From Pseudobacteriovorax sp. (GTDB lineage: Bacteria; Bdellovibrionota_B; Oligoflexia; Oligoflexales; Oligoflexaceae): 44,081 nucleotides of DNA. Both the position numbers and the translations under genes were made by a program. The number at the start of each line of letters is the position of its first letter. Positions within the stretch are counted from its first letter, which is position 1. The stretch is taken from the NCBI GenBank assembly GCA_013215145.1, contig JABSRP010000053.1, positions 1 to 44,081 on the forward strand, written 5' to 3'. The notes under the pieces are model-generated. The model did no database searches and was not told the origin of the DNA. It was given only the letters and a program-made list of their open reading frames with translations. Shown piece by piece: positions 1 through 41,078 of the stretch.

Positions 1-284
1 CTTGCAAGGATTCCACTTCCTAGGCAATATTGTCACTTCCACTCGGAGATTGTTAGGTTTCCGTCCGACCATTACAATTGATTGGGCCTCCTATGAGTAC
101 AAGACGATTTGAGAAACTCGATTTGATGGCCTCCCCTATGAAAGACATATTAAACCGCAAACTATTGCAATTTGGAGGGTATGTTTTTAGAAAATTTTAT
201 AAGTATTTAATCTAAAATTTATTATTGAGCGAGTGATTCAATCAGATTATTTCAACTGGGTATAGTTTAACGCACCTGAGGAAT

Positions 285-328
285 ATAGTGTGCCCGATTT
301 GAAGCTATAGTGTCCCCAAATTGAAGCA
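285..328. repeat. Two tandem imperfect 22-bp direct repeats (tatagtgtgcccgatttgaagc / tatagtgtccccaaattgaagc) inside a ~930-bp non-coding stretch
   Basis: Read directly from the sequence; 18 of 22 positions are identical and the copies are head-to-tail with no gap. Confidence 0.6.
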
Positions 329-2198: not shown

Positions 2199-5100
2199 CT
2201 AACCTGCTTCGTCGAATTGATGTAAGTCAGATTTTGTCTTGGAAACCAAATCGCTGATCTCACCCGATAGTTTTGTAGACCGACCTGCTAGCTGCTTAAC
2301 TTCAGAAGCTACTACAGCAAACCCTTTACCAGCTTCCCCGGCTCGTGCAGCTTCAATGGTTGCATTTAAAGCCAATAGGTTCGTTTGACCTGCTACCTTG
2401 ACAATTGATTTCGAGGATTTTTCGACGTTTTCTAACACGTCGCTGACTATTCTTCGCGACTCGATGATGGCTAAATTTTTTTCCGTTTGATCATTGAAAA
2501 TCCCGATCACATAGGCTAGTTCACCATAACCATCTGGTATAGCCTGCAAGGTTCCTGTTGCATAAACTGTTTCATTATCACCACAGGAAACTTTCAAATC
2601 AATTTTCTGACTTTTGCCTTGAATGGCATGTTCCCATTGTTTCTTATCAAAGACTTGGGAAGCGTTTAAAATGGGTTCTGACATGTGATCGCTAGAGATT
2701 TTGAATGTTTCCTTGGCTAATTGGTTGCTTCTCCTCAGTTTTCCAGAAATATCCCACTCCATAACTAGGCTTGAATTTTCAATAGACTCTATTTTCTTGC
2801 TTGATTCAATCGACAAGTTTTTAGTTGATGAAATATTAGCCTGTATCGAAATAAATCTTTCAACGTCACCGTGCTGGTTTAAAATAGGATTAACAGATAA
2901 TGAAATCCAATAGGCTTCCTTACTTTTAGTGTAATTTAGAATCTCCGTATAGAAAGGTTTTTTATTTTCCAAATTCGCTCTAATATCACTAATTGTATTT
3001 TTATCTGTCAAAGGACCTTGGAGTAGAGTTCCAGGCTTATTGCCCTTAGCATCCTCGAAAGTATAACCGGTTAATTTAGTAAAACCAGGATTGACATATT
3101 CAATCTGACCTTTTGGATCTGTTATCACAACACTATTGTCCGTCTCGTTGGCTACGAGCGATAGAATTTCAATTTTCTCTCTCTCTAAAATTTGCTGTGT
3201 TATGTCAACAGCATATTTTACAACTTTGAATGGCTTGCCAGAGGCGTCGTTTATTGGATTATAGGTTGCTTGAATCCAGACCTTTTTTCCATGATTTCCA
3301 ACGCGTTCATATTCCCCCTCTTGGAAATGACCCTCCTTTAGATTATTCCAAAACTCTCTATATTCTCTTGAATTTGCATAATCAGGAGTCGCAAAGATTC
3401 TATGATGCTTGCCTTTGATTTCATCTAGTCTGTACCCCATACAAGCTAAAAAGTTTTCATTGGCATCAAGTATATTTCCCTCGAGGTCAAATTGGATCAC
3501 AGCTTGGGATTTTCCTATCGCTTCAATCTGTCCCTCATAATCAGCACTTTTTAACTTATCATTGGTAATATCTGTTGCGTATTTAACAACTTTAAAGGGT
3601 TTACCTGATGGGTCACAAATAGGATTGTATGTGGCTCGAATCCAAACGCTTTCGCCATTTTTTCTAACCCTTTCAAATTCACCTTCGTGGTAATGCCCAG
3701 TTTTCAATTTTTCCCAAAATTCTTTATATTTCGTAGAATTTGCATAATCTGCTTTAGCAAAGATTTTGTGATGACGTCCTTTAATCTCACCTAATTGGTA
3801 ACCCATGCAAGTTAGAAAATTGTCATTTGCTTCAAGTATATTTCCTTCGAGGTCAAATTGGATCACAGCTTGGGATTTTCCTATCGCTTCAATCTGTCCC
3901 TCATAATCAGCACTTTTTAACTTATCATTGGTAATATCTGTTGCGTATTTAACAACTTTAAAGGGTTTACCTGATGGGTCACAAATAGGATTGTATGTGG
4001 CTCGAATCCAAACGCTTTCGCCATTTTTTCTAACCCTTTCAAATTCACCTTCGTGGTAATGCCCAGTTTTCAATTTTTCCCAAAATTCTTTATATTTCGT
4101 AGAATTTGCATAATCTGCTTTAGCAAAGATTTTGTGATGACGTCCTTTAATCTCACCTAATTGGTAACCCATGCAAGTTAGAAAATTGTCATTTGCTTCA
4201 AGTATATTTCCTTCGAGGTCAAATTGGATCACAGCTTGGGATTTTCCTATCGCTTCAATCTGTCCCTCATAATCAGCACTTTTTAACTTATCATTGGTAA
4301 TATCTGTTGCGTATTTAACAACTTTAAAGGGTTTACCTGATGGGTCACAAATAGGATTGTATGTGGCTCGAATCCAAACGCTTTCGCCATTTTTTCTAAC
4401 CCTTTCAAATTCACCTTCGTGGTAATGCCCAGTTTTCAATTTTTCCCAAAATTCTTTATATTTCGTAGAATTTGCATAATCTGCTTTAGCAAAGATTTTG
4501 TGATGACGTCCTTTAATCTCACCTAATTGGTAACCCATGCAAGTTAGAAAATTGTCATTTGCTTCAAGTATATTTCCTTCGAGGTCAAATTGGATCACAG
4601 CTTGGGATTTTCCTATCGCTTCAATCTGTCCCTCATAATCAGCACTTTTTAACTTATCATTGGTAATATCTGTTGCGTATTTAACAACTTTAAAGGGTTT
4701 ACCTGATGGGTCACAAATAGGATTGTATGTGGCTCGAATCCAAACGCTTTCGCCATTTTTTCTAACCCTTTCAAATTCACCTTCGTGGTAATGCCCAGTT
4801 TTCAATTTTTCCCAAAATTCTTTATATTTCCTAGAGTTTGCATAATCCGCTTTAGCAAAGATTTTGTGATGACGTCCTTTAATCTCATCTAATTGGTAAC
4901 CCATGCAAGTTAAAAAATTGTCATTTGCTTCAAGTATATTGCCTTCGAGATCAAATTGAATCACAGCCTGAGATTTTCCAATGGCCTCGATTTGCCCTTC
5001 GTTGTCTGCCCGACGTTTTTTTTCCTCGGTGATATCAGTCGCATATTTTACTACCTTGTAAGGCTTTCCGGAGGCATCTTTGATGGGGTTATAGGTTGCC

Positions 5101-5756
5101 TGTATCCAAATGCTTTCGCCATTTTTACCGACTCGTTCAAATTCTCCTTCGTAATAGGTACCTGATTTGAGATTACGCCAAAAATCTTGATACTCTGGAG
5201 ATCTAGCATAGTCTGGTTTTGCAAAGATTTTATGATGCTTACCCTTTATTTCGTCAATTGTAAAACCTACGGTCTTCAAAAAATTCTCGTTTGCATCCAA
5301 GATAATTCCATCAAGATTAAATTGAATCACTGCCTGAGACTTTCCTATAGCCTGGATTTGTCCCTCGAAATCGGCATTTTGCATCTTGTTTTTTGTAATG
5401 TCAGTAGCAATTTTTACAATCTTGTAAGGCTTCCCCAAATCGTCAAAAATAGGGTTATAACTAGCTCGAATCCAAACGCTTTGACCACTTTTTGAAAAGC
5501 GCTCAAACTCTCCTTCTTGGTATTTCCCGCTTTTTAGAATTTTCCAGAAGTTTTTATATTCTTCTGAATTGCGGTATTTTTCATTAACAAACATACTATG
5601 ATGCTTCCCTTTTATCTCCTCTAAGCTGAATTCAACAGTTGTCAAAAAGTTCTCGTTCGCATCTAAAATATTCCCATCTAAATCAAACTGGATGACAGCA
5701 GACGATTTGATAACTGCTTCAAGAATTGCCTTAATATCATTTGAATTAAAATCCAT
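2199..5756 (-). CDS. Soluble chemoreceptor-like protein of 1185 aa. It has at least 9 tandem PAS domains, 7 of them a 122-aa unit, followed by a short MCP signalling-domain fragment
   Basis: A 122-aa PAS unit (…[22 protein letters not shown]…GRHHKIF…[28 protein letters not shown]) recurs 7 times and is followed by 2 further PAS-like modules. The C-terminus contains the canonical MCP hairpin-tip motif [35 protein letters not shown]. No hydrophobic TM segment is present. Confidence 0.85.
3481..4945. repeat. 366-bp tandem repeat array inside the PAS-MCP gene. Four units begin at 3481, 3847, 4213 and 4579, and 3481-~4827 is 100% identical between units
   Basis: Direct comparison of the four stretches shows identical nucleotides over about 1.35 kb. 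The flanking units, down to ~3230 and up to ~5700, are progressively diverged copies of the same 366-bp/122-aa PAS module. Confidence 0.9.
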
Positions 5757-5997
5757 GCGAACCTCCTAAGTTGCTAATCTAGGTTTTCGGAGAAAATAGA
5801 AAAAAATTAATATCCTGGATATTTTTTAATGCTTTTTCAGAGACATATAGAGATTTATAACTCTAACGAATAAGTCTTTTTGATGGAAGTGTCTATTTCC
5901 AAGAAGAAATTCTGAGTTTGGTACTAAGGGTGGGTTACCTTCGATTTCAACCTTTGCATAGCAAAAAGGAACTCACTCATTGCTATGCACGAAGACC

Positions 5998-6636
5998 TTA
6001 TTCTATGCTGTCGCTTTCTTCTTCCGCCTTATCATCGTCTTGGTCTTCTTCTTCATTGTCATCGTCTTCGTTTTCTTCTTCGTCTTCATTATTTACAGTA
6101 TCAAGGTCACAGTCACTCGAAGGTACTGTTTCATACTCGAATTCACCAATGGATGCGCTGTTAAGCTCAGTTTTGAGAACCTGTGCATTGCAGAAGGATT
6201 CGATTTCGACCTCTTCAACAGATGTCATGGCAACCTCAACACAATAAAGACCGTTCGGATTGCCTAAACTTACTTCGATTTCACCAGCGTTTTCTCCAGG
6301 GATTTTGATAAGTACAATTTCTGGTGTTTCGGTTGTCTGTGCATCTTCGATCTCTATTTCCTCTATGTTGTTAGGGACGATTGCCTCGATGATGCGATAG
6401 TCAAGGGCATCGCCGACCTTGAAGTCTTCTAAGTTTTCCATTGCTGAAAGGCACGAGCCGAGAGTCCCTGGAATGTCGCCTGTCTCAAGTAGGTTCTCCA
6501 CTTGGATTTCGTTTAAAGCAGCCTCGCGATTAAACTGATCTGATCCTGTGAATTTGGTATCGTTAAGATTATCAGAATTACAGTTTGCTTGGCTCAAAAG
6601 ACTAAGACTTAAAGTCAGTTTCAGTATTTGTTTCAT
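5998..6636 (-). CDS. Secreted, highly acidic protein with a poly-Asp/Glu C-terminal tail. It may be a lipoprotein
   Basis: The ATG at 6636 gives MKQILKLTLSLSLLSQANC…, a signal peptide with Cys directly after it. The ORF also extends to a TTG at 6672. The C-terminus reads NEDEEENEDDDNEEEDQDDDKAEEESDSIE. Confidence 0.6.
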   Translation of the reverse strand: MKQILKLTLSLSLLSQANCNSDNLNDTKFTGSDQFNREAALNEIQVENLLETGDIPGTLGSCLSAMENLEDFKVGDALDYRIIEAIVPNNIEEIEIEDAQTTETPEIVLIKIPGENAGEIEVSLGNPNGLYCVEVAMTSVEEVEIESFCNAQVLKTELNSASIGEFEYETVPSSDCDLDTVNNEDEEENEDDDNEEEDQDDDKAEEESDSIE

Positions 6637-6785
6637 AATGGATTCAAAGCAGGCTGCATGCTCAAATTTCAAAAAAAGAAGTAGAGCACAGCCTGAGTCT
6701 TCTTCAAGAACTCAAGCTTATTTCCTTTGACCCAGATACGAACCAATACCGCAAACTCAAAGAAGACTTTAGCTCACCGGTTGCG

Positions 6786-9899: not shown

Positions 9900-10934
9900 T
9901 TAGTTTCTACTGAAGAACTCATCAAAGACCTCATCACTCCAGTAAGCGATGCCTTCGGCTTGATTGGGGGAGTGCCATGATTCTTCGGATTTATGGCTTG
10001 GATTGACACAAGCTACGGCTAGAAATAGTAGGCAGAGTGAGGCAAGTAAAAGACTTCGGTTGTTTGGACGTGTGTCTTTGAACGCTTCGATACGACTTCT
10101 CAGTTCACTTTTTCCCAGCTGGTGCCCTACAGTCAGCGGATTTAGCGAACCTTGTAAAAGGAGCTGGCAGTTTAATAGGGTAGCAGCGTATTTCTTACGT
10201 ATTGTTTTGCCCAAGCAAACCTGTCGATCGCAGCTTATTTCCATGGATTTGTTTAGTTGTTTAGCTAGAAAAATCAAAAATGGAGAGAACCATAAAACAC
10301 ACTTTAGTACTTGCATATAGGCATTGAGCTGAATATCTCTCCGTTTAATATGGACATTCTCATGCTCTAGGACTAATGCTAGCCCTTCGTCATCTAAACT
10401 CTTCGTCAGTATTTGAGGAATGAAAATTCTTGGACTAAAGACTCCGTACGACATGGGAGATAGGTTTGATTTATGGGTGTATACTGGGATCCCCTTAAAC
10501 TCGAATGCGCAGTGGGATGAAGCCTCTAGCTGTCGCATACGATTAAGGGCAAATACTAATTTCATTAGTAAGATGGATAGAATAATCGCATAGATTCCCC
10601 AGACGTAGATAAACATGGAGATTGTTGTCGGTTTCACTTCCCTTGACAATAACTTTGGCTCCATGATCTCTTCCATTGTACTAAAGATTAGTGAAGGATG
10701 ATCCTTATTTGGGGTTCTGAAGGTTGGGGTCACAAAATCTTCTGTATCAGCTATTTGAGATATCTTCGATGTTGGGAAATCAAAACTAGGAATAAAAATC
10801 AGCAGAGGTAATGCTAGTAAACTGATTCTCAAGTAATGAAACAAACCATGGGCCGCTACTCTCCCTCGCAAGAAAAACCAACCTACACAAATGAGAAAGG
10901 GATAGATAAAGGCATAAAGGAAAAAAATCATCAA
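9900..10934 (-). CDS. BlaR1/MecR1-type M56 family membrane metalloprotease signal transducer. It lacks the C-terminal beta-lactam sensor domain
   Basis: N-terminal TM helices are followed by the M56 signature SPMSYGVFSPRIFIP…LVLEHENVHIKRRD (an HExxH zinc motif) and MEISCDRQV. After a final TM segment only about 40 residues remain. Confidence 0.85.
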   Translation of the reverse strand: MMIFFLYAFIYPFLICVGWFFLRGRVAAHGLFHYLRISLLALPLLIFIPSFDFPTSKISQIADTEDFVTPTFRTPNKDHPSLIFSTMEEIMEPKLLSREVKPTTISMFIYVWGIYAIILSILLMKLVFALNRMRQLEASSHCAFEFKGIPVYTHKSNLSPMSYGVFSPRIFIPQILTKSLDDEGLALVLEHENVHIKRRDIQLNAYMQVLKCVLWFSPFLIFLAKQLNKSMEISCDRQVCLGKTIRKKYAATLLNCQLLLQGSLNPLTVGHQLGKSELRSRIEAFKDTRPNNRSLLLASLCLLFLAVACVNPSHKSEESWHSPNQAEGIAYWSDEVFDEFFSRN

Positions 10935-11302
10935 TCTAACTCACCTAGAAGTTGACGAATGCGCTCGATTTCATCCGATGAAAGCTTCTGATTCTCGATC
11001 AAATTCAATGCAAGATCAAAAGCCTTCCCCTCATAGACATCTTCAATGAGATTTTCGGCTACAGAATTTTGATAGCTAAGACGGTCAATGCGAGCGGTAA
11101 AACGATGCTCTTTCTCTGAATTGTCCTTTTTTAGATAGTTTTTCTTGACAAGATTATTCACTGCAGTTTGTAGCGAAGTATAGGCAGGAGGCGGATCTAG
11201 CATATTCAAGATATCACGAACACTGGCTCGATCATGATCCCAAAAGAGCTTCATAATTTTTAATTCATGGTCCGTAAGATTTTTATTTATGGGGCGACTC
11301 AT
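10931..11302 (-). CDS. BlaI/MecI/CopY-family winged-helix transcriptional repressor
   Basis: The protein is 123 aa. Its N-terminus LTDHELKIMKLFWDHDRASVRDILNML…YTSLQTAVNNLVKKNYL fits the penicillinase-repressor fold. Its stop overlaps the start of the M56 gene by 4 nt. Confidence 0.8.
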   Translation of the reverse strand: MSRPINKNLTDHELKIMKLFWDHDRASVRDILNMLDPPPAYTSLQTAVNNLVKKNYLKKDNSEKEHRFTARIDRLSYQNSVAENLIEDVYEGKAFDLALNLIENQKLSSDEIERIRQLLGELD

Positions 11303-25902: not shown

Positions 25903-28761
25903 CTAGGAGGCTTTTGAGTCCGAGGCGATGGCTAGAGAAAGCCTTGTAAATTCTACTATATGATTGGGTAGGAAAATCTGAAAGGAAAAAGCGTAAGACC
26001 TACTATCTTTACTAGATTCGGCAAGACTCACATCGACTGATCCTCCCTCAACTTCGATAAACTCTTTCACAACATCTAAACCGACTCCACGTCCCGATAA
26101 ATCCGAGACTTCGCTCTTAGTAGAGAACCCCGGGATAAAAATAGTCCTTGCTATCTCAAGTGGAGAAGAGAGATCAGCATGCCTCCGCTCGGACATCTTG
26201 GAGGTCCTTTCTTTGAGTTTGTGCAAGTCAAGACCTGAGCCATCGTCGGCATAGGTAAGCTGGATTCCGTTGTTAGACATGGTGACCGAGATTTCGATAT
26301 TTCCCATCTCGTCTTTCCCTTTTTCTTTTCTGATATTCGGCGGCTCAATGCCGTGGTCCATACTATTGCGGAATAAATGGACAAAAACGTTTTGGATTAG
26401 CGTTGCGTACTCCATTTTAAGACTAACCTCATCACCTGAGTAGGTGATATTGGGCATTGGTTTGTCTAGGTTTTGGGCTATAGATTCGAGAGACTTTACA
26501 ATATCTGTGAGAATATCTTCCAAGGATAGCTTGGTCATTTGAAATAATTTATCCCTCACGAGAAATAAATCTTGTTGGCTCTTTTCGGATTGAACGCTGT
26601 TGCTACTCTGATCGATCATCTGAAAGATTTCGGAGATTGCCAATTTCGACACCTGAATGCTGTTATCGTCGGACTGTGATTGATGGAGAGCCTCCTCTTT
26701 CAATCGCTGGTATTCATCTATTTCCTCGGATACTGCCTGGACTTCTGACAACATTTGCTCTCTATCCCATAGGGACGGTGTATCCCTAATTTGGGAAAAT
26801 CTGTTTTCTGCATGGTGAGTTTTTTCGGCCAAAAAGCTGAACTTGTAAGTGCGAGCTAACCCCTTCAATGTATGCATGTTTCTAAAAATAAGGTTAATTC
26901 TTGACTCCCTATCCAGCCCTTCATTTTGAATAGAGTCGCGACATGAAGCCGTTAACTTGCGGCTGGTTTGGATGATATCTCGAAATTTTTCTGGCTTTAC
27001 TTCGATGATCTCGTGGAGGTATTTTAGCTCGCTGGTTACTTTTTCGTTCTTTGCCCTTAATCGTCTGATTTCCGTGGAATCTCTGACTGCAACGATGATT
27101 TTTTCAATACTGGAATCATGTTCATCGATAATATAAGACCAATCGATATCGAGGTATTTTGCCTCATCACCACTCCCGATCGAAATTTCCTTGGGTAAAA
27201 GATGTTCGTTGGCCTCAAAGACAATAGCATCTTGTCCCACAACCGACTGAAGGGTAGCTTCCACCTGGTTCTTTTCATTGGTATCCAAACTACTATGGGC
27301 AAAGAGTAGATCCCTTAACAAAACTTTAGGCGATAGACGACCTGCTAAAATCACCTCAAGCTCACTAGAGTATTCAGGATCAATAGTGAGGTTATCATTT
27401 GAAATCGAAAAAATTCCTTGCCTGAGGGAGTCTAGAACGGATCTAATATGCCTAGTTTGGCTTGCTACTTTTCTATCTAAATTTTCAATATGTTCATTTA
27501 ATTCTTTGTTCAATCCTTTGATGGTGGTCTCATCTTTTTCAACCTGAGCAAAAGCATTAGAAAAGCGCATGGCTATATTACTAGCTTGAAAAAGGATAAG
27601 TAGCATGAGCCCGTAAGATAGCAACCAAGATCCTTGGATATATGCCATAGAAACCAGAATATCGTATATTATACTAAAGAAAAAAATTGCTGCTCCAGCA
27701 ATAGCTACCGAAGCCCCAATTTCTTTTTTGTAGGCAGCGCGGAACATTGTTGTGAATGAATAGATGACGCTGAGAATAATAATGAGATGAAAAAATGGCA
27801 GAAATTTCCCATAGGTTTCTTGCTCTCCTATAAGAACTATCATACAGCCGATGATACCTGCAAACCAAATAACCTTTCCACCCCGTGGAAAATATTTTGT
27901 GTAGCTGCTTTTCACGAAGGACATAAATAAGGGTCCACCAATGACGATGGCCAAAAATTCCAATTTTTTAAACCATTCGCTATCGATATTAGGAAAGTTA
28001 CGAATTAAAAGGTTACCATCTGCGGTGCTGATGCGCCTCGATACAATTGCTATGCAAAACAACCCAAAGTATAAGGGAGCCTTACTCTTGGATCGTATCA
28101 TAAATAGTATTAAATGGTATATTCCCATGATGGCAATAAAGCCAATTACGATGCCATTGAAATTGATTTCGTCGATGAACTCGTCAAAGAAAAAAGAGTT
28201 TTTGTGTAGAGACATAGGAGTCCAAAGCCCACCCGAATTGTGGTGAAAGGCAGAAACTTCAAGCCAAATCTTCGCAATACCCTTTTTATCGGACCTAATG
28301 GGGACGTAGGTCGCTCCTCGTCCAGCGGCAGATGTGGCTTTGCTTTTTCCCACCACGCCGCTGGAATCAATATACTTCCCATTGACGAAGATCCTCCAAG
28401 ATGATCCCAGCTCGGGAACGCGTAGGTAAATAAGCCCTCTTGGTTTTTTTAGGTCTAGAAATAGTTCGTAGGTCGCGAAACCTTGTTTCTTTATAAAATT
28501 GTGTTGTTTTGAGAGTTTGTCCCACTTAGTAGGTATACGGACTTTGAGAGACTTTTGAATTTTCCGTGATTCACGGTTTAACTCCGATAGAAAAATTCCC
28601 CAGTAGAAATTCCATTCTGCATCGAGAGAGACTTTGCTTTCAGATATGTCTCCTATCGCGACTTGGTGTCTGGTTGATTTAGCCCAAGAATTGCTAACAG
28701 ACCCTATAGCCAAGGTTAGAGTGAGTAAAAATACTGTCTTAGTTATATTCGGCAATCGCAT
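25903..28761 (-). CDS. 7TMR-DISM receptor fused to a CheA-type histidine kinase module (HPt plus P4 ATPase) of 952 aa. It has no P3/P5 domains and no receiver
   Basis: A signal peptide is followed by a periplasmic 7TMR-DISMED2-like domain (…LRVPELGSSWRIFVNGKYI…) and 7 TM helices. A ~250-aa helical linker follows. The HPt motif is IFRNMHTLKGLARTYKF. The CheA-type catalytic domain reads HLFRNSMDHGIE…, ADDGSGLD and SGRGVGLDVVKEFIEVEGGSVDV. The ORF ends about 40 aa later. Confidence 0.8.
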   Translation of the reverse strand: MRLPNITKTVFLLTLTLAIGSVSNSWAKSTRHQVAIGDISESKVSLDAEWNFYWGIFLSELNRESRKIQKSLKVRIPTKWDKLSKQHNFIKKQGFATYELFLDLKKPRGLIYLRVPELGSSWRIFVNGKYIDSSGVVGKSKATSAAGRGATYVPIRSDKKGIAKIWLEVSAFHHNSGGLWTPMSLHKNSFFFDEFIDEINFNGIVIGFIAIMGIYHLILFMIRSKSKAPLYFGLFCIAIVSRRISTADGNLLIRNFPNIDSEWFKKLEFLAIVIGGPLFMSFVKSSYTKYFPRGGKVIWFAGIIGCMIVLIGEQETYGKFLPFFHLIIILSVIYSFTTMFRAAYKKEIGASVAIAGAAIFFFSIIYDILVSMAYIQGSWLLSYGLMLLILFQASNIAMRFSNAFAQVEKDETTIKGLNKELNEHIENLDRKVASQTRHIRSVLDSLRQGIFSISNDNLTIDPEYSSELEVILAGRLSPKVLLRDLLFAHSSLDTNEKNQVEATLQSVVGQDAIVFEANEHLLPKEISIGSGDEAKYLDIDWSYIIDEHDSSIEKIIVAVRDSTEIRRLRAKNEKVTSELKYLHEIIEVKPEKFRDIIQTSRKLTASCRDSIQNEGLDRESRINLIFRNMHTLKGLARTYKFSFLAEKTHHAENRFSQIRDTPSLWDREQMLSEVQAVSEEIDEYQRLKEEALHQSQSDDNSIQVSKLAISEIFQMIDQSSNSVQSEKSQQDLFLVRDKLFQMTKLSLEDILTDIVKSLESIAQNLDKPMPNITYSGDEVSLKMEYATLIQNVFVHLFRNSMDHGIEPPNIRKEKGKDEMGNIEISVTMSNNGIQLTYADDGSGLDLHKLKERTSKMSERRHADLSSPLEIARTIFIPGFSTKSEVSDLSGRGVGLDVVKEFIEVEGGSVDVSLAESSKDSRSYAFSFQIFLPNHIVEFTRLSLAIASDSKAS

Positions 28762-34137: not shown

Positions 34138-36132
34138 ATGGAAAATGTTTTTATTAATTCAGGAATTGTCATTTTTGCAAGTGTCAGCTTGTTTATCTTG
34201 GGAATCGTATTTTTCATAACGCGTTTCCTGAGAAAGGTTGAACCAGGAAAAGCTCTGATTATTATTAATCCGTTCAAAAAGAATATGGCTGTTAGCTTCA
34301 CAGGAGGCGTCGTAATCCCTGTCATCCATCGTGCTGAGGTTATGGATATTTCGACCAAACAAGTTGTGGTTGAAAGGCGTGGAAAAGATGGTCTGATATG
34401 CAAAGATAATATTAGAGCTGATATTTCAGTTAACTTCTATATCAGAGTCAATAATACAGTAGAAGACGTGCGCAACGTTGCTCAAAGTATTGGAGTTGAT
34501 CGAGCCTCCCAGAAAGAAACCTTGGATGAACTATTTCAGGCCAAATTTTCGGAAGCTTTGAAAACAGTAGGCAAGAAGACCGATTTCGAAGAGCTTTTTC
34601 AGGAACGCGCTTTGTTCAAAGAAAAAATTGTTCAGGAGATAGGGCAAAACCTCAATGGCTACAGTCTGGAAGATACAGCCATTGACTATCTCGAACAAAC
34701 AGGTCTCGAATTTTTTGAGCCAAACAACATTCAAGATGCAGCCGGTATAAAAAAGATTATTGATATCACATTAGAGTTGAAAGAGCAGAAAGAAAAGCGT
34801 GAAACGGAAGCAACGGAGCGCATTCTTGAGCTAGACAGACAGAGGGCTGAGGCTAAGGCGCGTCAGGAAGCCGAAATCGCCATTCTCCAGGCGAGAGAAA
34901 ATGCTGAGCAGGAAAAAATCATCCAAGAAGAAAGGCAAAAAGCCGAACTTGCAAAGATCCGCGTTGACGAGGAATTACGAATTGCAGCGGAAAATATGGA
35001 ACGTCAGGTTGAAGTTGCTAAAAAAAGTAAGGAACGCACGGTTGCTGTTGAGACAGAGCGAGTTGAAAAAGAACGAGATCTTGAAAAGACTGACCGCGAA
35101 AAACTAGTTGCGCTTGCAGATATCGAAAAAGTGAGAGCGGTTGAAGATCAGAAGAAAACGATTCAAGAAATCATTAGACAGCGTGTGGCACTAGAACGAT
35201 CAGTGGCTGAGGAAGAAGAAAAGACTAAGGATACGGTAGCATTGGCTACTGCTAACAGAAACAAAACAGTACAATTAACAGCGGCGGAGGCCAATGCTGA
35301 AGAAAAGTTAGTAACCGAAATTAAATCTGCTGAAGCCAAAGAAAAAGCAGCAAAATATGCAGCTAATGAAATGGCAATACGCGCGGAAGCTGAGCTTGCT
35401 ACATCTAATCAGATCGCCGACGCAAAAAAAATCCTAGCCGAAGGGATCATTGCCGAATCTGCTGCGGTAGGTTTGTCTGAGGTGAAAGTAAAAGAAGCTG
35501 ATGCTGATGCTGTTCGGAAGCTGGGAGAGGCCGAAGCTCATGCCTTGACCTTCAAGTCTAGAGCTGAAGCCGAGGCCATTCGGGAAAAAGGAACCTCTGA
35601 AGCGCAAATTATTGCTGATAAGGCCAAGGCTATGCATGATCTAGACGAGGTGGGAAGAGAGCACGAAGAGTTTAAAGCCAGGCTTAATGTCCAGCAAGAA
35701 CTGGCTCTTGAAAAATTGACTGTTAGTCGCGATATAGCAAAAAATAATGCTCAGGTGATTAGTAAGGCTCTAGAAAATGCAAAGATTGACATCGTAGGAG
35801 GTGACCAAATATTCTTCGATAAACTAATTTCGGCAGTGAGTAATAGCAAGTCAATTGAAGCTCGTTTTCCAGAAGATGGAGTCTTAAATCAGGTCAAGGA
35901 TGTTTTTTTATCTGATGGAAACGGTGAGTTGATGACCAAGCTAAGAGGAGTCATTGATACTCTTGGTGTTGGGTCAAAAGCAATGAAAGATTATAGTATC
36001 GCGGGACTACTTAATAAATTGCATAGTGAGACAAAGGATTCGTCGATTCAGGGTGTTATATCTGGACTTCTTAAAGATGCTGAGTCCGCTGGGATCAATG
36101 ATCAGTCTTCGCAAATATTGTTTAATAAATAG
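34138..36132 (+). CDS. Flotillin-family SPFH/band-7 protein (664 aa, YqiK-like)
   Basis: An N-terminal TM helix is followed by an SPFH domain and a long Glu/Ala/Lys/Arg-rich coiled-coil (the flotillin-type EA repeat region). It is tightly linked to the NfeD-like gene upstream. Confidence 0.8.
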   Translation: MENVFINSGIVIFASVSLFILGIVFFITRFLRKVEPGKALIIINPFKKNMAVSFTGGVVIPVIHRAEVMDISTKQVVVERRGKDGLICKDNIRADISVNFYIRVNNTVEDVRNVAQSIGVDRASQKETLDELFQAKFSEALKTVGKKTDFEELFQERALFKEKIVQEIGQNLNGYSLEDTAIDYLEQTGLEFFEPNNIQDAAGIKKIIDITLELKEQKEKRETEATERILELDRQRAEAKARQEAEIAILQARENAEQEKIIQEERQKAELAKIRVDEELRIAAENMERQVEVAKKSKERTVAVETERVEKERDLEKTDREKLVALADIEKVRAVEDQKKTIQEIIRQRVALERSVAEEEEKTKDTVALATANRNKTVQLTAAEANAEEKLVTEIKSAEAKEKAAKYAANEMAIRAEAELATSNQIADAKKILAEGIIAESAAVGLSEVKVKEADADAVRKLGEAEAHALTFKSRAEAEAIREKGTSEAQIIADKAKAMHDLDEVGREHEEFKARLNVQQELALEKLTVSRDIAKNNAQVISKALENAKIDIVGGDQIFFDKLISAVSNSKSIEARFPEDGVLNQVKDVFLSDGNGELMTKLRGVIDTLGVGSKAMKDYSIAGLLNKLHSETKDSSIQGVISGLLKDAESAGINDQSSQILFNK

Positions 36133-36140
36133 GTATAGTA

Positions 36141-39100
36141 GTGACTATCAGTAATACGCTTACAGCTACGGGCGGCAACTTTGATATCATTAGAAAAAGA
36201 CTGATAACACAAAGCAAAGCCCTTGAGACGATACTAACGGATCTCAATCTAAGACGTAAAGATACCTTTGGAACTATCGAAAACAAGATTCTTTCGTCGG
36301 ATCGAGTTAATACACCTATCCCCTGTGTGGCTCGCGATATGGTAGCTCAGGGGGATACGTTACTTATGGCGTTTGAGGTCCATTTTGGATTAAAATCTTC
36401 GGTAAATGTTTCTGATATTTTTAGAACCTATCAATATATAGACGATAGATTTCAAGAGGTCGAAGCGACACTTATTGATGATGAACAGTTCTATCGCGAT
36501 CTTTCCGATTTGACTAAATTCTACAAAGATTGCCGATTTGCTAGATTTTTGAAGAAAAAAACATTTTTGTACATGATCTTTCATGTGGGGCGCGGTAGAG
36601 ATAAAAAAGTCTTCAAATGGGCCATTAATCCCGATGATAAACTAACTTATGTTGATAATAGATCAGATTTTGAAGTCGCTGATCCACCCCAATATAGTTT
36701 TGATTGGGAACGTATCACGCGCGATGATCATGTGTATATTGGTGAACCTCATATTAACGTTTCAGATCGACTGTTTGTTGACTGCTTGGGTGGATCGCTT
36801 ACGATAAGGATCGAGGATAACACCGAAATCGGTCATACGATTCTTCAAGAATCTGTTGATGAAACGGATCAAACCTTAGACGATGCGGTTATCGAATACG
36901 CCGTATTGGATCATATTATTATTCTCAAGATACTTCCCTACCGAGAGCAAGATGCCCGATACTTTATATATAACGATAAAAACGAAACCATTAAAAAGGT
37001 AGAGGATCTAAAAAACTGTGGAATCGCACTGCCTGAAAACGATGGACTGATGTTTCCTAACGGTTATTATCTAAGGAATGGTACTTTCCGTTCGTTTTCG
37101 CTAGAACGAAGCGATATGAAGTTCCAACAGTGTTTAGAAAGCCTGAATGGAGAAGATCTACTTTATGCCTTTCATGACCACGAGATGGGCGAATATATCT
37201 TAATCCAATATAACCGTATTGAAAAAACGGTAGGTCAACCTATTACCTGTCATGGATATGCTATATTTGGTAACGGAAAGATGGTGGTTTTTGGGGCTTC
37301 GCAAGAACCTATGAAGAGTCATAGTATTCAAACATGGAGCACATCGTTTATCGAAGATGCTAGCGTCTTTGAAGCTTCTGATGAATCTTCTATGGCGCGC
37401 ATAGGTAATAAAACATTGGTTGATGGTTTTTCTGACCTGTGGGAGATAACCAATTTAGCTAAAAAAGAAGAAAATACCTTAGCGGAATATAATGAATTAT
37501 TGAGGTTCATCCGAGAGTCTCAGGATAGGCATTATTGGTTTAGTGAAGAAGAGTTTTCCCAAATAAAACAAAAATTAGCTGATCTTCTGTCCACTGCTAC
37601 TTCTGCCGTCGATGAATTTGAAAAGGTGATTAGCGCAAAGAAAAAAAGTCATAAAGATTTTCAAGAGGCTGAGATCAATGTACAAAATCTTATTGATGCC
37701 ATAAAGATAGAGGGATTCGAAACTATTGATCCCTTCATTGAAAAGATCACCGATCTTAGATTGCAATTGGGTGAGGTTCTCTCACTGGCGGAAAATCAGT
37801 TTGCAAATGCCGAAGGGTTGGAAGTTCTTGAGGGACGACTTAAAGCAGAGCTGGATCAGCTAACGAGCTCTTGTAGTCGATTTCTTATGAGCCAAAAAGC
37901 GGTTCAGCCATTTCATGATCGTTTGGAGCAGATCTTATTGTCTATGGAGTCCGTAGAACGCTCAAAAGATCTAGAAAATGTTGATGCTGAAATCGCGAAA
38001 TATACTCTTCACCTAAATACATTAACGGATCTTATAAACGATTTGGCTACTTCCGATCCGAAGGATTCGGTTCAAATCATTGAACAATTATCTCAACTTA
38101 TTGCCGGGTCAAATCAAGTTAAAGCAAAATTCAAATCTATTCGAACCAACCTGCTTCACGAGGAGTTAGGAACCGAGTACCAAGCGCAAATGACTCTTCT
38201 GTCGCAATCGGTTTCTAGTTACCTGGAGCAAGTTGAATCTCTAGAAGATTGTGATAACTTTCTTGATCGAGTTCTCGGCAATCTAGAATCACTAGAGGTT
38301 AAGTTTTCCGAATTTCCAGACTATCTAAATGATCTTGCTGAAAAACGTGATGAATATTTTTCCGTGTTTCAGTCAAAAAGGGTTCAAATACAAGAAGCCA
38401 GCAATAAAAAAATAATGGCAATGATGGACTCTGGAGCGCGTCTTTTGAAAAGTATAAAAAAGCGCTCGATCCACCTCGAAACGTGTCAACAGATTTCTAC
38501 TTTTTTCGTCACCGACAGTATGGTTACCAGATTACAAACAGTTGCTGATGAGATGGCTAAACTAGGTGAGACGGTGAAAGCTGAGGATTTAAGGGGGCAG
38601 CTTAAAAAAATTAGGCAAGATGCCTTAAGGCAGCTGAAAGATAAACAGGATTTATTTCAACTTGGTGAAAATATCATAACTTTGGGTCAGCATAGTTTTC
38701 AAGTGAGTGACCTGTCGGTGGATCTCTCCATTATTGAGCGTAGCGATGGACCCAATATTCATATATCTAGTACTGATTTTTTTCAGGCTATTCCAGAAGG
38801 AAGTTTGAACTCTTCAAAAACTCTGTCTCAACAAACAGTCGTCAGTGAGACAAAAAAAGTATATCGATCGGTTTATCTCGCTTATTATTATGTGCAGAGT
38901 CTATATGCTGGCGAGAGGCCTTTAAATTTAAGTCAATTGCTCTCTAACTCAAGTAGTCTAGACGGTGTAGAGGATGAAGCCCTCGAAAAAGATATCCTTT
39001 CTTTTATGCAGAGTAGGTTAGACGAAGGCTATGAAAAAGGCGTACACGATAGAGATGGCTATAGAATTATCGGTCGTATACTTCCTATTCTCGCTCATGA

Positions 39101-41078
39101 CCCTGTACAGAGATTTCATCCTGTAACACGAGCGCTAGGATTTTTATTCTCTAAATATGAGGAAAATGACAGTTTAAGCGTCATTCTTAAAAAAATCCAG
39201 TCTTGGTCTAAAATACAAAAACAAAATCTCGCTCGTAATCCAAAAAACGACTATATTGAAGAACTTCGTTGCGAAATCAAAAACTTTCTTTCGGCATCTA
39301 ATTTGGATGATTATGTAGGCTATGATCATAAAGTAGCTCACTACCTAGCACATCAATTTTTGCTACAGGAAGATCACCGGGACCACTATTTTGCTAAAGA
39401 GTCCTACGAATTATATAATGAGTTTACCGAGTGGATCAAGCAAGGTGATCTGAAGGATAAAATCCTTTCACTGGTGGATGGGGTTGATCACTTAGGTGAT
39501 AAAATTGCGATATTATTTGATTGGTTGCAACAATTTCAAAAGACATTTAACAGTGGAAAAGACGACTTTGTACTGGAATCAGTGATTATAGCTTTGGAAT
39601 TACAATTTACGGCAGCAGATAATCAAAATTTCCAGATGAAAAGGCTAGTCAACAGTAGCATATTTAGTGTAGATGGACTCATTGGAACTCACGAAAACCT
39701 TGATCAAGGAAAACTTAATACTTATGTATTTGAATTATTTTCTCAGGTGGAAACCTATTTAGAAGATGGAAGAGACGCGTTTCTAAACTTCCAGATCGAA
39801 AAGCAAAATTTAATCAAACAATATCGGCAATCGTTTAAACTTGATCAGCTGCAACCGAAAATTCTTGGATCGTTTGTTCGCAATCAGTTAATTCAGGAAT
39901 CATACCTGCCAAAAATTGGTGAAAACTTTGCAAAACAAATCGGAAGCTATGGAAATGATAAGCGTGTTGATCTGATGGGTCTGCTCCTTTTGATCTCACC
40001 CCCAGGCTACGGGAAGACCACATTAATGGAATATGTGGCTCAGAGGCTGGGTCTGATATTTTTAAAAATTAACGGCCCAGCGATTGGTCACAGTGTAACA
40101 TCTTTGGACCCACAGGAGGCACCAAATGCGACGGCTCGGCTAGAAATTGAGCGTCTTAACTTTGGTTTCGAACTTGGGAATAATGTTATGATTTATATCG
40201 ATGATATCCAACACTGCCACTCTGAGTTTCTTCAAAAATTTATTTCATTATGTGATGGCCAGAGGAAAATCGAGGGAGTTTGGCAAGGTAGTCCGAAGAC
40301 CTATGACTTTCGAGGTAAGCGTATTGCAGTGGTCATGGCAGGAAACCCATATACCGAGACGGGTGAGGTCTTTCGTATCCCAGATATGTTATCAAACCGA
40401 GCCGATATATATAATTTAGGTGATATGCTAAGTGGTTCGGAGGATGCGTTTCTACGATCTTATATAGAAAACTGCCTTACCTCCCACCCTGTACTTGCGA
40501 AATTGACAAATATTGACCAAACAGAGACTCAAAAGCTCATCGAACTGACGGAAGAAAATCATGAGGACTTAGGGACTCTTGTAAAACGTTCCGTGTCTGA
40601 AGGTCATCAAGACTTAGCCAATATGCTAGTGAAGTGCGTATTCGTACGAAATATTGTTCAGACTGTTAATCAAAGCTACATAGCCTCGGCAGCACAGGAT
40701 GACTCATTTCGGACCGAGCCAGGATTTCTGTTGCAAGGTAGTTATCGGGATATGAATAAAATCATGGGAGGGATTCAACCTGCTATGAATGAGTCGGAAC
40801 TTTTGGATCGTGTGATCGATCATTATCGTTTTGAGTCGCAGTTGCTTACCAGTTCTGCAGAGTTCAATTTTTTACGATTCCTTGAACTCATCGATCGCTT
40901 GGACGATCGAGAGAAAGTCAGAATCGAAGAGATACGTGGCGAGTTTAGAAAAACTCAACGTCTATCTTCTGCAGGCAAAGATGGAATAGGGAATATTATA
41001 GGCCAATTGGATCAATTTAACGTAAAATTTGATGAACTAGTTAACGTCTATCGCAGTCGGATAAAACAACATGACTGA
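36141..41078 (+). CDS. Giant 1645-aa protein with a C-terminal MoxR/AAA_5-type AAA+ ATPase module. The N-terminal ~1270 residues have no recognisable domains
   Basis: Walker A is LLLISPPGYGKTTLMEY (aa ~1285). Walker B is VMIYIDDIQH. Sensor-1 is VVMAGNPY. The central region is long and helical, coiled-coil-like. GTG start 8 nt after the flotillin stop. Confidence 0.7.
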   Translation: MTISNTLTATGGNFDIIRKRLITQSKALETILTDLNLRRKDTFGTIENKILSSDRVNTPIPCVARDMVAQGDTLLMAFEVHFGLKSSVNVSDIFRTYQYIDDRFQEVEATLIDDEQFYRDLSDLTKFYKDCRFARFLKKKTFLYMIFHVGRGRDKKVFKWAINPDDKLTYVDNRSDFEVADPPQYSFDWERITRDDHVYIGEPHINVSDRLFVDCLGGSLTIRIEDNTEIGHTILQESVDETDQTLDDAVIEYAVLDHIIILKILPYREQDARYFIYNDKNETIKKVEDLKNCGIALPENDGLMFPNGYYLRNGTFRSFSLERSDMKFQQCLESLNGEDLLYAFHDHEMGEYILIQYNRIEKTVGQPITCHGYAIFGNGKMVVFGASQEPMKSHSIQTWSTSFIEDASVFEASDESSMARIGNKTLVDGFSDLWEITNLAKKEENTLAEYNELLRFIRESQDRHYWFSEEEFSQIKQKLADLLSTATSAVDEFEKVISAKKKSHKDFQEAEINVQNLIDAIKIEGFETIDPFIEKITDLRLQLGEVLSLAENQFANAEGLEVLEGRLKAELDQLTSSCSRFLMSQKAVQPFHDRLEQILLSMESVERSKDLENVDAEIAKYTLHLNTLTDLINDLATSDPKDSVQIIEQLSQLIAGSNQVKAKFKSIRTNLLHEELGTEYQAQMTLLSQSVSSYLEQVESLEDCDNFLDRVLGNLESLEVKFSEFPDYLNDLAEKRDEYFSVFQSKRVQIQEASNKKIMAMMDSGARLLKSIKKRSIHLETCQQISTFFVTDSMVTRLQTVADEMAKLGETVKAEDLRGQLKKIRQDALRQLKDKQDLFQLGENIITLGQHSFQVSDLSVDLSIIERSDGPNIHISSTDFFQAIPEGSLNSSKTLSQQTVVSETKKVYRSVYLAYYYVQSLYAGERPLNLSQLLSNSSSLDGVEDEALEKDILSFMQSRLDEGYEKGVHDRDGYRIIGRILPILAHDPVQRFHPVTRALGFLFSKYEENDSLSVILKKIQSWSKIQKQNLARNPKNDYIEELRCEIKNFLSASNLDDYVGYDHKVAHYLAHQFLLQEDHRDHYFAKESYELYNEFTEWIKQGDLKDKILSLVDGVDHLGDKIAILFDWLQQFQKTFNSGKDDFVLESVIIALELQFTAADNQNFQMKRLVNSSIFSVDGLIGTHENLDQGKLNTYVFELFSQVETYLEDGRDAFLNFQIEKQNLIKQYRQSFKLDQLQPKILGSFVRNQLIQESYLPKIGENFAKQIGSYGNDKRVDLMGLLLLISPPGYGKTTLMEYVAQRLGLIFLKINGPAIGHSVTSLDPQEAPNATARLEIERLNFGFELGNNVMIYIDDIQHCHSEFLQKFISLCDGQRKIEGVWQGSPKTYDFRGKRIAVVMAGNPYTETGEVFRIPDMLSNRADIYNLGDMLSGSEDAFLRSYIENCLTSHPVLAKLTNIDQTETQKLIELTEENHEDLGTLVKRSVSEGHQDLANMLVKCVFVRNIVQTVNQSYIASAAQDDSFRTEPGFLLQGSYRDMNKIMGGIQPAMNESELLDRVIDHYRFESQLLTSSAEFNFLRFLELIDRLDDREKVRIEEIRGEFRKTQRLSSAGKDGIGNIIGQLDQFNVKFDELVNVYRSRIKQHD

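What the first reader, a model, noticed from the sequence alone, without database searches (positions are those of the whole stretch)
3481..4945. About 1.35 kb of perfectly identical 366-bp tandem repeats encoding whole PAS domains inside a chemoreceptor gene
Four consecutive 366-bp units (122 aa each, one PAS domain per unit) are 100% identical at nucleotide level from about 3481 to 4827. Diverged copies flank them on both sides. Perfect identity over this length implies very recent expansion or ongoing concerted evolution by unequal recombination. The PAS copy number is therefore likely to vary between strains or even within a population. Such an array is also a classic short-read assembly hazard, so the true copy number here may differ from what is shown.
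Basis: seen in the sequence. Interest (0 to 1): 0.65.

Follow-up and report, generated by a model that had tools for sequence, protein, structure and literature searches.

The report
Recently amplified PAS-domain repeats, copy number unresolved
A bacterial sensor gene carries several letter-for-letter identical copies of a 366-base module, each encoding one PAS sensor domain; other assemblies of the same organism show two fewer copies or break at this spot, so the repeat is real but its true copy number is unknown.

Summary
Window 3481-4830 (1350 nt) is perfectly periodic at 366 nt, which is 3.69 units rather than four. It lies in a 1185-aa minus-strand gene (2199-5756) with seven 122-aa PAS_3 units; U4, U5 and U6 are identical.

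The identical unit is a mosaic of U7's head and U3's body, the expected product of in-register unequal crossover.

The window is a complete MAG contig (Pseudobacteriovorax sp., NRA68193.1). Five other metagenome assemblies of the same population exist:
- One equals the window minus exactly two units, with one other difference in 15 kb.
- Three have a 100-N gap inside the array.
- One of those three carries a variant last unit (9 substitutions) between 100%-identical flanks.

The assembly hazard is therefore demonstrated. Biological copy-number variation is plausible but cannot be separated from assembler behaviour without reads.

Near-identical PAS units and whole-unit length differences recur in homologs, including on Mb-scale contigs.

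"Chemoreceptor" is only partly right. The MCP domain is reduced to a hairpin tip of about 45+47 residues, conserved in a wider family, and the 44 kb hold no cheA/cheW.

This is an ordinary mechanism in an uncommon setting, of moderate interest.

The parts
2199..5756 (-). Gene for a 1185-aa soluble multi-PAS protein (NRA68193.1): 7 PAS_3-type units, a LOV-like PAS, a further PAS fold and a mini MCP hairpin. Coordinates include the stop codon.
   Evidence: ORF. Pfam gives PAS_3 2e-123 (8 stretches) and MCPsignal 85.4 bits. Exact match to an NCBI protein.
5762..5767 (-). Shine-Dalgarno sequence AGGAGG, 5 nt upstream of the ATG at 5756.
   Evidence: Read directly from the sequence.
5382..5747 (-). 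PAS unit U1 (aa 4-125), the most diverged unit (64% nt identity to U4).
5016..5381 (-). PAS unit U2 (aa 126-247), 68% nt identity to U4.
4650..5015 (-). PAS unit U3 (aa 248-369). Its last 181 nt are identical to unit X. All 26 differences from X fall in its first 185 nt.
3552..4649 (-). Three nucleotide-identical units, X = U4 (4284-4649), U5 (3918-4283) and U6 (3552-3917), aa 370-735.
3186..3551 (-). PAS unit U7 (aa 736-857). Its first 71 nt are identical to X and the rest is about 70% identical.
3481..4830 (.). Perfectly periodic (366 nt) stretch of 1350 nt, containing a 984-nt exact direct repeat.
2802..3185 (-). LOV-like PAS_9 domain (about aa 858-985). It lacks the photoactive Cys: it reads [10 protein letters not shown] where LOV domains have GRNCRFLQG.
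   Evidence: Pfam PAS_9 at aa 874-976. YtvA-family match, below cut-off. The AF2 model matches LOV domains at rmsd 1.4-2.0 A. The motif is read.
2487..2801 (-). Ninth, sequence-degenerate PAS fold (about aa 986-1090).
   Evidence: AF2 model: strands and helices at residues 142-234 of the 330-aa segment, pLDDT about 90. Conserved across the family alignment.
2202..2486 (-). Mini MCP signalling hairpin (aa 1091-1185). About 45 residues precede the tip motif [20 protein letters not shown] and 47 follow it.
   Evidence: Pfam MCPsignal at aa 1105-1178, profile positions 29-102 of 172. Matches Tar residues 365-423. Arm lengths compared with homologs.

Best explanation
The stretch is a genuine in-frame tandem array of whole PAS-domain modules inside a soluble multi-PAS signalling gene of a marine Pseudobacteriovorax population. 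The most likely origin is repeated in-register unequal homologous recombination, or gene conversion, between neighbouring 366-bp units.

Proposed history (inferred):
1. A four-unit array (U1 U2 U3 U7) underwent a crossover near unit position 71. This produced a hybrid unit X' made of U7's head and U3's body.
2. X' then diverged about 5% from U3.
3. A second crossover between U3 and X', at unit position 185-197, produced unit X.
4. Further rounds multiplied X with no substitutions since.

One unit is exactly 122 codons, one PAS fold plus its linker helix. Each gain or loss therefore adds or removes one intact sensor module without breaking the reading frame.

The exact repeat is 984 nt in the 7-unit form, too long for short reads to span. 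The number of X copies in any short-read assembly, this window included, is therefore not reliable. Published versions show 5 units, 7 units, or a gap.

Shown: the anatomy of the array, the mosaic, and the disagreement among assemblies. Inferred: the order of events and the recombination mechanism.
For: - Perfect period-366 stretch at 3481-4830.
- U4=U5=U6 at 100%, with a gradient of divergence outward.
- Sharp mosaic boundaries: 0/71 differences from U7, then 28/114; 0/181 differences from U3 in the tail against 6/114 in the middle. The probability of 0/181 at the middle segment's rate is about 6e-5.
- L002's last unit X' is identical to X over positions 16-185 and has 9/181 differences in the tail. 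It is therefore uniformly about 5% from U3. Its flanks (788 nt and about 3.5 kb) are 100% identical to the window.
- L003 carries the X' allele at unit position 320 of U3.
- The L001 gene equals U1 U2 U3 X U7 exactly. The whole 15-kb locus differs from the window by the 732-nt deletion plus one base.
- 100-N gaps lie inside the array in L002, L003 and L004.
- Longest exact internal repeats are 984 nt (7 units), 252 nt (5 units) and 19 nt (hypothetical 4 units).
- dN/dS between units is 0.07-0.19, so the units are kept as functional domains.
- Family context: 8 of about 120 homologs have neighbouring units with 100% identical windows of at least 100 aa, and about 25 reach 95% or more.
- P0010 and P0015 differ by exactly one 122-aa unit between 99-100% identical ends.
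- A gene on a 3.3-Mb contig has a 590-nt period-366 run with a single mismatch.
- Same-architecture relatives carry 4-5 units, and the wider family mostly 0-2.
Against: - No reads were available, so the three identical X copies could reflect how an assembler traversed a graph loop. Perfect identity is expected either way.
- The 5-versus-7 difference is between assemblies of different samples and could be purely technical.
- Units could not be matched one-to-one with those of P0117, P0120 or P0082. The four-unit ancestor therefore rests on the internal mosaic and on the unit counts of relatives, not on orthology.
- The window and L001 both lack X'. Either X' was converted or lost in those populations, or it was smoothed away during assembly.
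- Replication slippage cannot be distinguished from recombination using sequence alone.
Confidence: 0.72

Rival explanations
1. Assembly artefact in the copy count. The real locus has fewer X units, for example the 5-unit form of L001 or U3-X-X'-U7. The window's three identical copies come from an assembler walking a de Bruijn loop several times, so the perfect identity is by construction.
For: L001 is exactly the minimal traversal that contains every k-mer of the array. Three further assemblies could not close the array. The window's copies carry no substitutions at all, whereas another sample shows a variant unit at the same place.
Against: From general knowledge, short-read assemblers usually collapse repeats rather than expand them, so 7 is as likely an under-count as an over-count. 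A 5-unit array has only a 252-nt exact repeat, which paired reads normally bridge, yet 3 of 5 assemblies broke. A U3-X'-U7 array would have only a 107-nt repeat, so the gap in L002 implies at least one extra unit there. Comparable near-perfect arrays exist on Mb-scale contigs of relatives.
Confidence: 0.2
2. The array is real but static. The population has one fixed copy number, and every difference among the six assemblies (5 units, 7 units, gaps, X versus X') is technical.
For: All assemblies are more than 99.9% identical in the flanks, so they sample one population. All are short-read-style scaffolds in which this repeat cannot be resolved.
Against: The X'-to-U7 junction (L002) and the X-to-U7 junction (window, L001) differ at sites only 37-46 nt from the U7 boundary. 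A single read or a k-mer of about 110 nt can link those sites to U7-specific bases, so both junctions are probably real alleles (inference). Close relatives on Mb-scale contigs differ by exactly one unit.
Confidence: 0.25
3. The units are kept identical by selection on a required protein sequence, not by recent duplication or conversion.
For: Units are under purifying selection, with dN/dS 0.07-0.19.
Against: Identity is complete at synonymous sites over 1350 nt. In contrast, dS between U3 and U4 is 0.33 and is saturated between the other units. Selection on the protein cannot freeze synonymous sites. The mosaic edges are abrupt.
Confidence: 0.01

Closest known systems
Full-length multi-PAS_3 chemoreceptors of marine Gammaproteobacteria and others (database homologs P0002-P0120, e.g. 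Vibrio caribbeanicus, Saccharobesus litoralis, Algicola sagamiensis; uncharacterised)
   Same: They have the same 122-aa PAS_3 unit in tandem arrays of 4-12 units, at 45-59% identity to this protein. Neighbouring units are often 95-100% identical, and close relatives differ by whole units.
   Different: They carry a full-length MCP signalling domain, with a median of 136 residues after the tip against 47 here. Where examined, they sit in CheA-CheW-MCP-CheY-CheB operons. This gene has only the hairpin tip, an extra LOV-like PAS plus PAS module, and no che neighbours.
Conserved 'LOV-like PAS + PAS + mini MCP hairpin' family (P0117, P0120, P0082, P0126-P0245; annotated generically as MCP or PAS S-box protein)
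   Same: The C-terminal 330-aa module is the same, at 36-48% identity. The protein ends 33-58 residues after the tip in most members.
   Different: Most members have 0-2 N-terminal PAS_3 units and a few have 4-5. This gene has 5 or 7, the most seen, and is the only one found with nucleotide-identical units.
Nucleotide-identical intragenic tandem repeats of bacterial surface proteins (alpha C/Rib of group B Streptococcus, Esp, Bap); from general knowledge, not tested here
   Same: Domain-sized, in-frame repeats that are identical at nucleotide level. Their number changes by recombination or slippage, and they defeat short-read assembly.
   Different: Those are secreted adhesin or antigen domains under immune or adhesion selection. 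Here the repeats are cytoplasmic sensor domains of a signalling protein.
Aer2-type multi-PAS soluble chemoreceptors (e.g. the tri-PAS VvAer2, PMC10107281)
   Same: Soluble receptor with several PAS domains upstream of an MCP signalling tip.
   Different: According to that paper's abstract, Aer2 PAS domains bind heme and are diverged from each other. Here the units are closest to the flavin-type PAS domains of MmoS and Aer, they are homogenised, and the signalling domain is a stub.
Brucella LOV-HK (LOV-PAS-helical output; PDB 6ph4, 6pps)
   Same: Best structural match to the predicted C-terminal module, a LOV-like PAS followed by a PAS and a long helical output.
   Different: The output here is an MCP hairpin tip, not a histidine kinase. 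The LOV-like domain lacks the adduct-forming cysteine.

Membership tests
PAS domain (Pfam PAS_3 PF08447 / TIGR00229) | Each repeat unit scores above the curated threshold for a PAS model. | tested here: met
   PAS_3 scores 403 bits against a cut-off of 25.6, in 8 stretches. TIGR00229 scores 415 bits against 22.9, in 8 stretches.
Methyl-accepting chemotaxis protein (MCP) | Conserved signalling hairpin tip (MCPsignal, PF00015) above the gathering score. | tested here: met
   85.4 bits against a cut-off of 34.6. The tip motif [20 protein letters not shown] is present.
Methyl-accepting chemotaxis protein (MCP) | Long antiparallel coiled coil, with known classes having at least 24 heptads (general knowledge: Alexander and Zhulin 2007), including methylation helices. 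| tested here: not met
   Only profile positions 29-102 of 172 match. About 45 residues lie between the last PAS and the tip, and 47 lie after it. Among homologs the medians are 166 and 136.
Methyl-accepting chemotaxis protein (MCP) | Genomic association with CheA/CheW. | tested here: inconclusive
   No cheA, cheW, cheY, cheB or cheR in the 44-kb contig. The rest of the genome was not available. A 7TMR-DISM-Hpt-CheA-like kinase without a CheW-like domain lies about 20 kb away.
Methyl-accepting chemotaxis protein (MCP) | Match to a named NCBIfam MCP equivalog above its cut-off. | tested here: not met
   The best is CtpM at 67.7 bits against a cut-off of 900. All matches are confined to about 60 residues at the tip.
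Tandem domain array under concerted evolution / copy-number variation | Head-to-tail in-frame units with a hybrid (mosaic) junction unit. | tested here: met
   The period is exactly 366 nt across 7 units. X is U7's head plus U3's body, with abrupt edges.
Tandem domain array under concerted evolution / copy-number variation | Units within one genome are more alike than any unit is to units of related proteins. | tested here: met
   U2, U3 and U7 are 70-75% identical at amino-acid level. Identity to any unit of P0117, P0120 or P0082 is at most 60%.
Tandem domain array under concerted evolution / copy-number variation | Different unit numbers on otherwise identical haplotypes. | tested here: inconclusive
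   The counts are 7 units (window) and 5 units (L001), with one other difference in 15 kb. Both are short-read-type assemblies and three others have gaps, so a technical cause is not excluded.
LOV blue-light photoreceptor (for the eighth PAS) | Conserved adduct-forming Cys in the GXNCRFLQ motif. | tested here: not met
   The sequence reads [10 protein letters not shown] and the family consensus is GxKPGxLLQGP. The YtvA-family score is 92.8 against a cut-off of 250.
Aer/MmoS-type flavin-binding PAS (for the repeat unit) | Sequence similarity to FAD-binding PAS domains, and conservation of the Aer RHPD flavin-contact residues (Aer numbering from general knowledge). | tested here: inconclusive
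   Similarity is clear: MmoS 3ewk at 1.2e-16 and V. cholerae Aer 8dik at 4.2e-11. In the printed alignment, Aer's 'rhpd' aligns with 'akad' in the unit. Cofactor binding cannot be tested with these tools.

The most novel reading that the evidence does not exclude
The number of PAS modules is a fast-mutating tuning parameter of a so-far undescribed class of soluble 'tip-only' MCP-like sensors. The hairpin of about 45+47 residues would dock onto chemosensory baseplates or CheA-like kinases. Gain or loss of identical PAS units by unequal recombination would change signal gain or cooperativity within populations. That would make this an evolvable cytoplasmic sensor, analogous to repeat-number variation in surface proteins.
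Probability: 0.1. Interest if true: 0.7.

Novelty: new member of a known kind. Interest (0 to 1): 0.38.

Why it matters
Practical: the deposited protein (NRA68193.1, 1185 aa) and its 941-aa twin in another assembly are the same gene with an unresolved repeat count. Any domain census, protein clustering or strain comparison that uses them inherits that error.

Biological: this is a clean, datable example of domain accretion in a signalling protein. A hybrid unit forms, diverges about 5%, recombines again and is then amplified.

Wider pattern: it belongs to PAS_3 arrays in MCP-type and GGDEF-EAL-type proteins, which are repeatedly homogenised and differ by whole units between close relatives. 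I found no description of this pattern in the searchable literature.

If copy number really varies in the population, it would show sensor architecture changing on ecological time scales.

Tried and rejected
- Relatives of the unique C-terminal module in GTDB species representatives: 76 pattern hits, none confirmed.
- An exact 50-nt piece of the unit in genome contigs and in JGI metagenome contigs: no match. No further assemblies could be recruited.
- Gene conversion from another unit in the window as the source of L002's 9-substitution tract: rejected, because the variant bases match no single unit.
- One-to-one orthology between U1, U2, U3, U7 and the four units of P0117 or P0120: not recoverable, since identities are all 45-60% with no diagonal.
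- Literature searches found nothing specific on tandem PAS arrays, concerted evolution of PAS domains, short MCP hairpins, or the sample and protein accessions. The MMBR review on cytoplasmic chemoreceptors is not held.
- Another gene or an RNA on either strand of the repeat: no Rfam match in the window, and only spurious ORFs of 69 aa or less.
- Truncation of the MCP domain by frameshift or premature stop: rejected. Both arms are equally short, all six assemblies end identically, and the short tail is conserved in dozens of distant homologs.
- The AF2 monomer model did not resolve whether the last 94 residues fold back as a hairpin. DSSP reads them as one continuous helical segment.

Full report
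**1. The observation**

Tandem Repeats Finder reports a period-366 array at 3348-4979. Comparing each base with the base 366 nt downstream gives an unbroken match from 3481 to 4464. The perfectly periodic stretch is therefore 3481-4830, which is 1350 nt or 3.69 units.

The stretch lies in a single minus-strand ORF, 2199-5756, of 1185 aa. An AGGAGG ribosome-binding site sits 5 nt before the ATG.

The protein begins with seven 122-aa units at exact 122-residue spacing. In the domain register, U4, U5 and U6 are 100% identical at nucleotide level. Identity to U4 is 92.9% for U3, 76% for U7, 68% for U2 and 64% for U1.

Each unit is one PAS_3-type domain. The gene is on the minus strand. The unit has no copy outside the gene, and the region encodes nothing else on either strand.

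**2. Anatomy of the identical unit**

The identical unit (X) is a mosaic with abrupt edges:
- Positions 0-71 are identical to the head of U7, with 20 differences from U3.
- Positions 185-366 are identical to the tail of U3, with 60 differences from U7.
- Positions 71-185 are U3-like, with 6 differences.

A single in-register unequal crossover between U7 and U3 near position 71, in a four-unit array, would produce this hybrid. The complete identity of the tail, next to a middle segment that is 5% diverged, has a probability of about 6e-5 under uniform divergence. It therefore points to a second, later exchange.

Synonymous sites are identical throughout the 1350 nt. Between the other units dS is 0.33 or saturated, and dN/dS is 0.07-0.19. 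The identity is therefore recent common descent or conversion, not selection on the protein.

**3. Where the window comes from, and what other assemblies show**

The protein is an exact match to NRA68193.1, 'MAG: PAS domain S-box protein [Pseudobacteriovorax sp.]', on a contig of 44,081 bp. The window is therefore the whole contig. The genus belongs to Oligoflexia in the phylum Bdellovibrionota.

The same 90%-identity cluster holds five other proteins, from ENA metagenome assemblies of five samples. Their contigs are more than 99.9% identical to the window outside the array.

- L001 is contiguous. It equals the window minus exactly 732 nt, with one other difference in 15,002 nt, and its gene is exactly U1 U2 U3 X U7.
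- L002, L003 and L004 each have a 100-N gap inside the perfect stretch.
- In L002 the unit preceding U7 (X') equals X over positions 16-185 but has 9 substitutions in the tail, 7 of them synonymous. The flanks on both sides are 100% identical to the window.
- X' is uniformly about 5% from U3 (6/114 and 9/181 differences). It looks like the older hybrid unit. X looks like a later recombinant of X' and U3, with the crossover at position 185-197.
- L003 has the X' allele at unit position 320 of its U3.

**4. What this means for copy number**

The longest exact internal repeat depends on the array form:
- 984 nt for the 7-unit form
- 378 nt for U3-X-X'-U7
- 252 nt for the 5-unit form
- 107 nt for U3-X'-U7
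- 19 nt for a four-unit array

The 7-unit form cannot be resolved by 150-nt reads and ordinary insert sizes. L001 is the minimal path through the corresponding assembly graph. The gap in L002 implies at least one X between U3 and X' in that sample (inference).

The count of X copies in the window is therefore not trustworthy in either direction.

The difference between 5 and 7 units may be biological, but that cannot be decided without reads. The existence of both X-U7 and X'-U7 junctions, with variant sites within about 110 nt of U7-specific bases, does suggest real allelic differences in the array between samples (inference).

**5. Family context**

A whole-protein search finds thousands of multi-PAS_3 proteins with the same 122-aa period. 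Most have a full MCP output and some have GGDEF-EAL outputs.

Among about 120 fetched homologs, 8 have neighbouring units with 100% identical windows of at least 100 aa, and about 25 reach 95% or more. This gene has the longest perfect run, 332 aa.

P0010 (1326 aa) and P0015 (1204 aa) have 99-100% identical ends and differ by exactly one unit.

On a 3.3-Mb contig whose name looks like a long-read assembly (my inference), a homolog has a 590-nt period-366 run with a single mismatch. On a 4.5-Mb contig, six neighbouring units are 87-97.5% identical. Homogenised PAS_3 arrays are therefore a recurrent natural feature, not peculiar to this MAG.

Units within this protein are more alike than any is to units of the closest same-architecture proteins. 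That is the classical signature of concerted evolution or lineage-specific duplication. It also means the four-unit ancestor cannot be confirmed by orthology.

**6. What the gene is**

After the seven units come three further elements:
- A LOV-like PAS that lacks the photoactive cysteine.
- A sequence-degenerate PAS fold.
- A helical segment of about 94 residues carrying the MCP tip motif.

These rest and on an AF2 model with pLDDT 88.5. The best structural matches are LOV-PAS-output sensors.

Only positions 29-102 of the 172-position MCPsignal profile are matched. About 45 residues precede the tip and 47 follow it, against medians of 166 and 136 in the homologs.

This is not a truncation. Both arms are short, all assemblies end at the same residue, and the same short tail is conserved in three places:
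- P0117, P0120 and P0082.
- Most of 120 hits to the C-terminal module.
- At least 27 representatives among the top 150 of an exhaustive search.

In that family the number of N-terminal PAS_3 units is mostly 0-2, sometimes 4-5. This gene, with 5 or 7, is the extreme.

The full-length relatives that were examined lie in CheA-CheW-MCP-CheY-CheB operons. This gene has no che neighbour in 44 kb. 'Chemoreceptor' is therefore a resemblance rather than an established membership.

The unit itself is closest to the flavin-type PAS domains of MmoS and Aer, but Aer's flavin-contact motif is not conserved. The cofactor is unknown.

**7. Mechanism and verdict**

The best-supported account is in-register unequal homologous recombination or gene conversion between 366-bp units. 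It adds and removes whole PAS modules while keeping the reading frame. The last rounds are so recent that no substitution has accumulated.

The main rival for the count is assembler behaviour. The main rival for the dynamics is a real but fixed array. Read depth, junction reads or long reads would settle both.

The phenomenon is a known kind, namely intragenic tandem domain repeats with concerted evolution. The setting, a cytoplasmic sensor array, is less familiar. This example is well documented and comes with a warning about the database entries.

Interest is moderate. The conserved tip-only MCP hairpin family, seen in passing, may deserve more attention than the repeat itself.

Noticed in passing
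window 2202-2486 (-), and P0117, P0120, P0082, P0126-P0245, P0247-P0382: The MCP signalling domain is reduced to about 45 residues before and 47 after the hairpin tip, far shorter than the known classes of 24 heptads or more. This 'tip-only' hairpin at the very C-terminus is conserved in a sizeable family of soluble PAS proteins from diverse bacteria. They are annotated generically as MCPs. I found no description of it in the searchable literature.
   Followed up: partly
window 2802-3185 (-): The eighth PAS is LOV-like in sequence and in predicted fold. It has [10 protein letters not shown] where LOV domains have GRNCRFLQG, so the photoactive Cys is missing. The whole family shares GxKPGxLLQGP.
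   Followed up: partly
window 25903-28761 (-): A 952-aa protein combines a 7TMR-DISM seven-transmembrane sensor, an Hpt domain and a CheA-type kinase core. It matches NCBIfam CheA positions 346-523 of 666, below cut-off. It has no HisKA domain and no CheW-like P5 domain. This looks like a membrane-anchored CheA-like kinase.
   Followed up: partly
L007 (P0010) vs P0015; L006 (P0072): Full-length multi-PAS_3 chemoreceptors in CheA-CheW-MCP-CheY-CheB operons on Mb-scale contigs also have near-identical neighbouring units. P0010 and P0015 differ by exactly one 122-aa unit between 99-100% identical ends.
   Followed up: partly
L002 4790-6278 (just beyond window position 1): In another assembly the sequence continues past the window's left end into an IS3-type transposase pair (HTH_Tnp_1 plus rve). 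The window contig probably ends at a repeated insertion sequence.
   Followed up: no
L005 1-863: A 1654-nt contig matches the window only at 1862-2626. Its first 863 nt encode an unrelated 245-aa ORF with no Pfam hit. It is probably a chimeric low-coverage contig, though a real rearrangement at gene aa 1044 is not excluded.
   Followed up: partly
window 6011-6089, inside ORF 5998-6672 (-): A 27-nt tandem repeat (2.4-2.8 copies, 71-84% matches) lies in a 212/224-aa ORF with no Pfam match, immediately upstream of the PAS gene.
   Followed up: no
window 284-327: A 22-nt tandem repeat (2 copies, 86% matches) lies in apparently non-coding DNA near the contig end.
   Followed up: no
window 9900-11300 (-): A BlaR1-like Peptidase_M56 gene and a BlaI-like Penicillinase_R repressor gene form a pair (Pfam calls on the identical L001 genes).
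   Followed up: no
window 34138-41078 (+): A Band_7/SPFH protein (664 aa) is followed by a 1645-aa protein with DUF3686 ('ATPase involved in DNA repair'), DUF7902 and AAA domains. Several neighbouring ORFs have no Pfam match.
   Followed up: no
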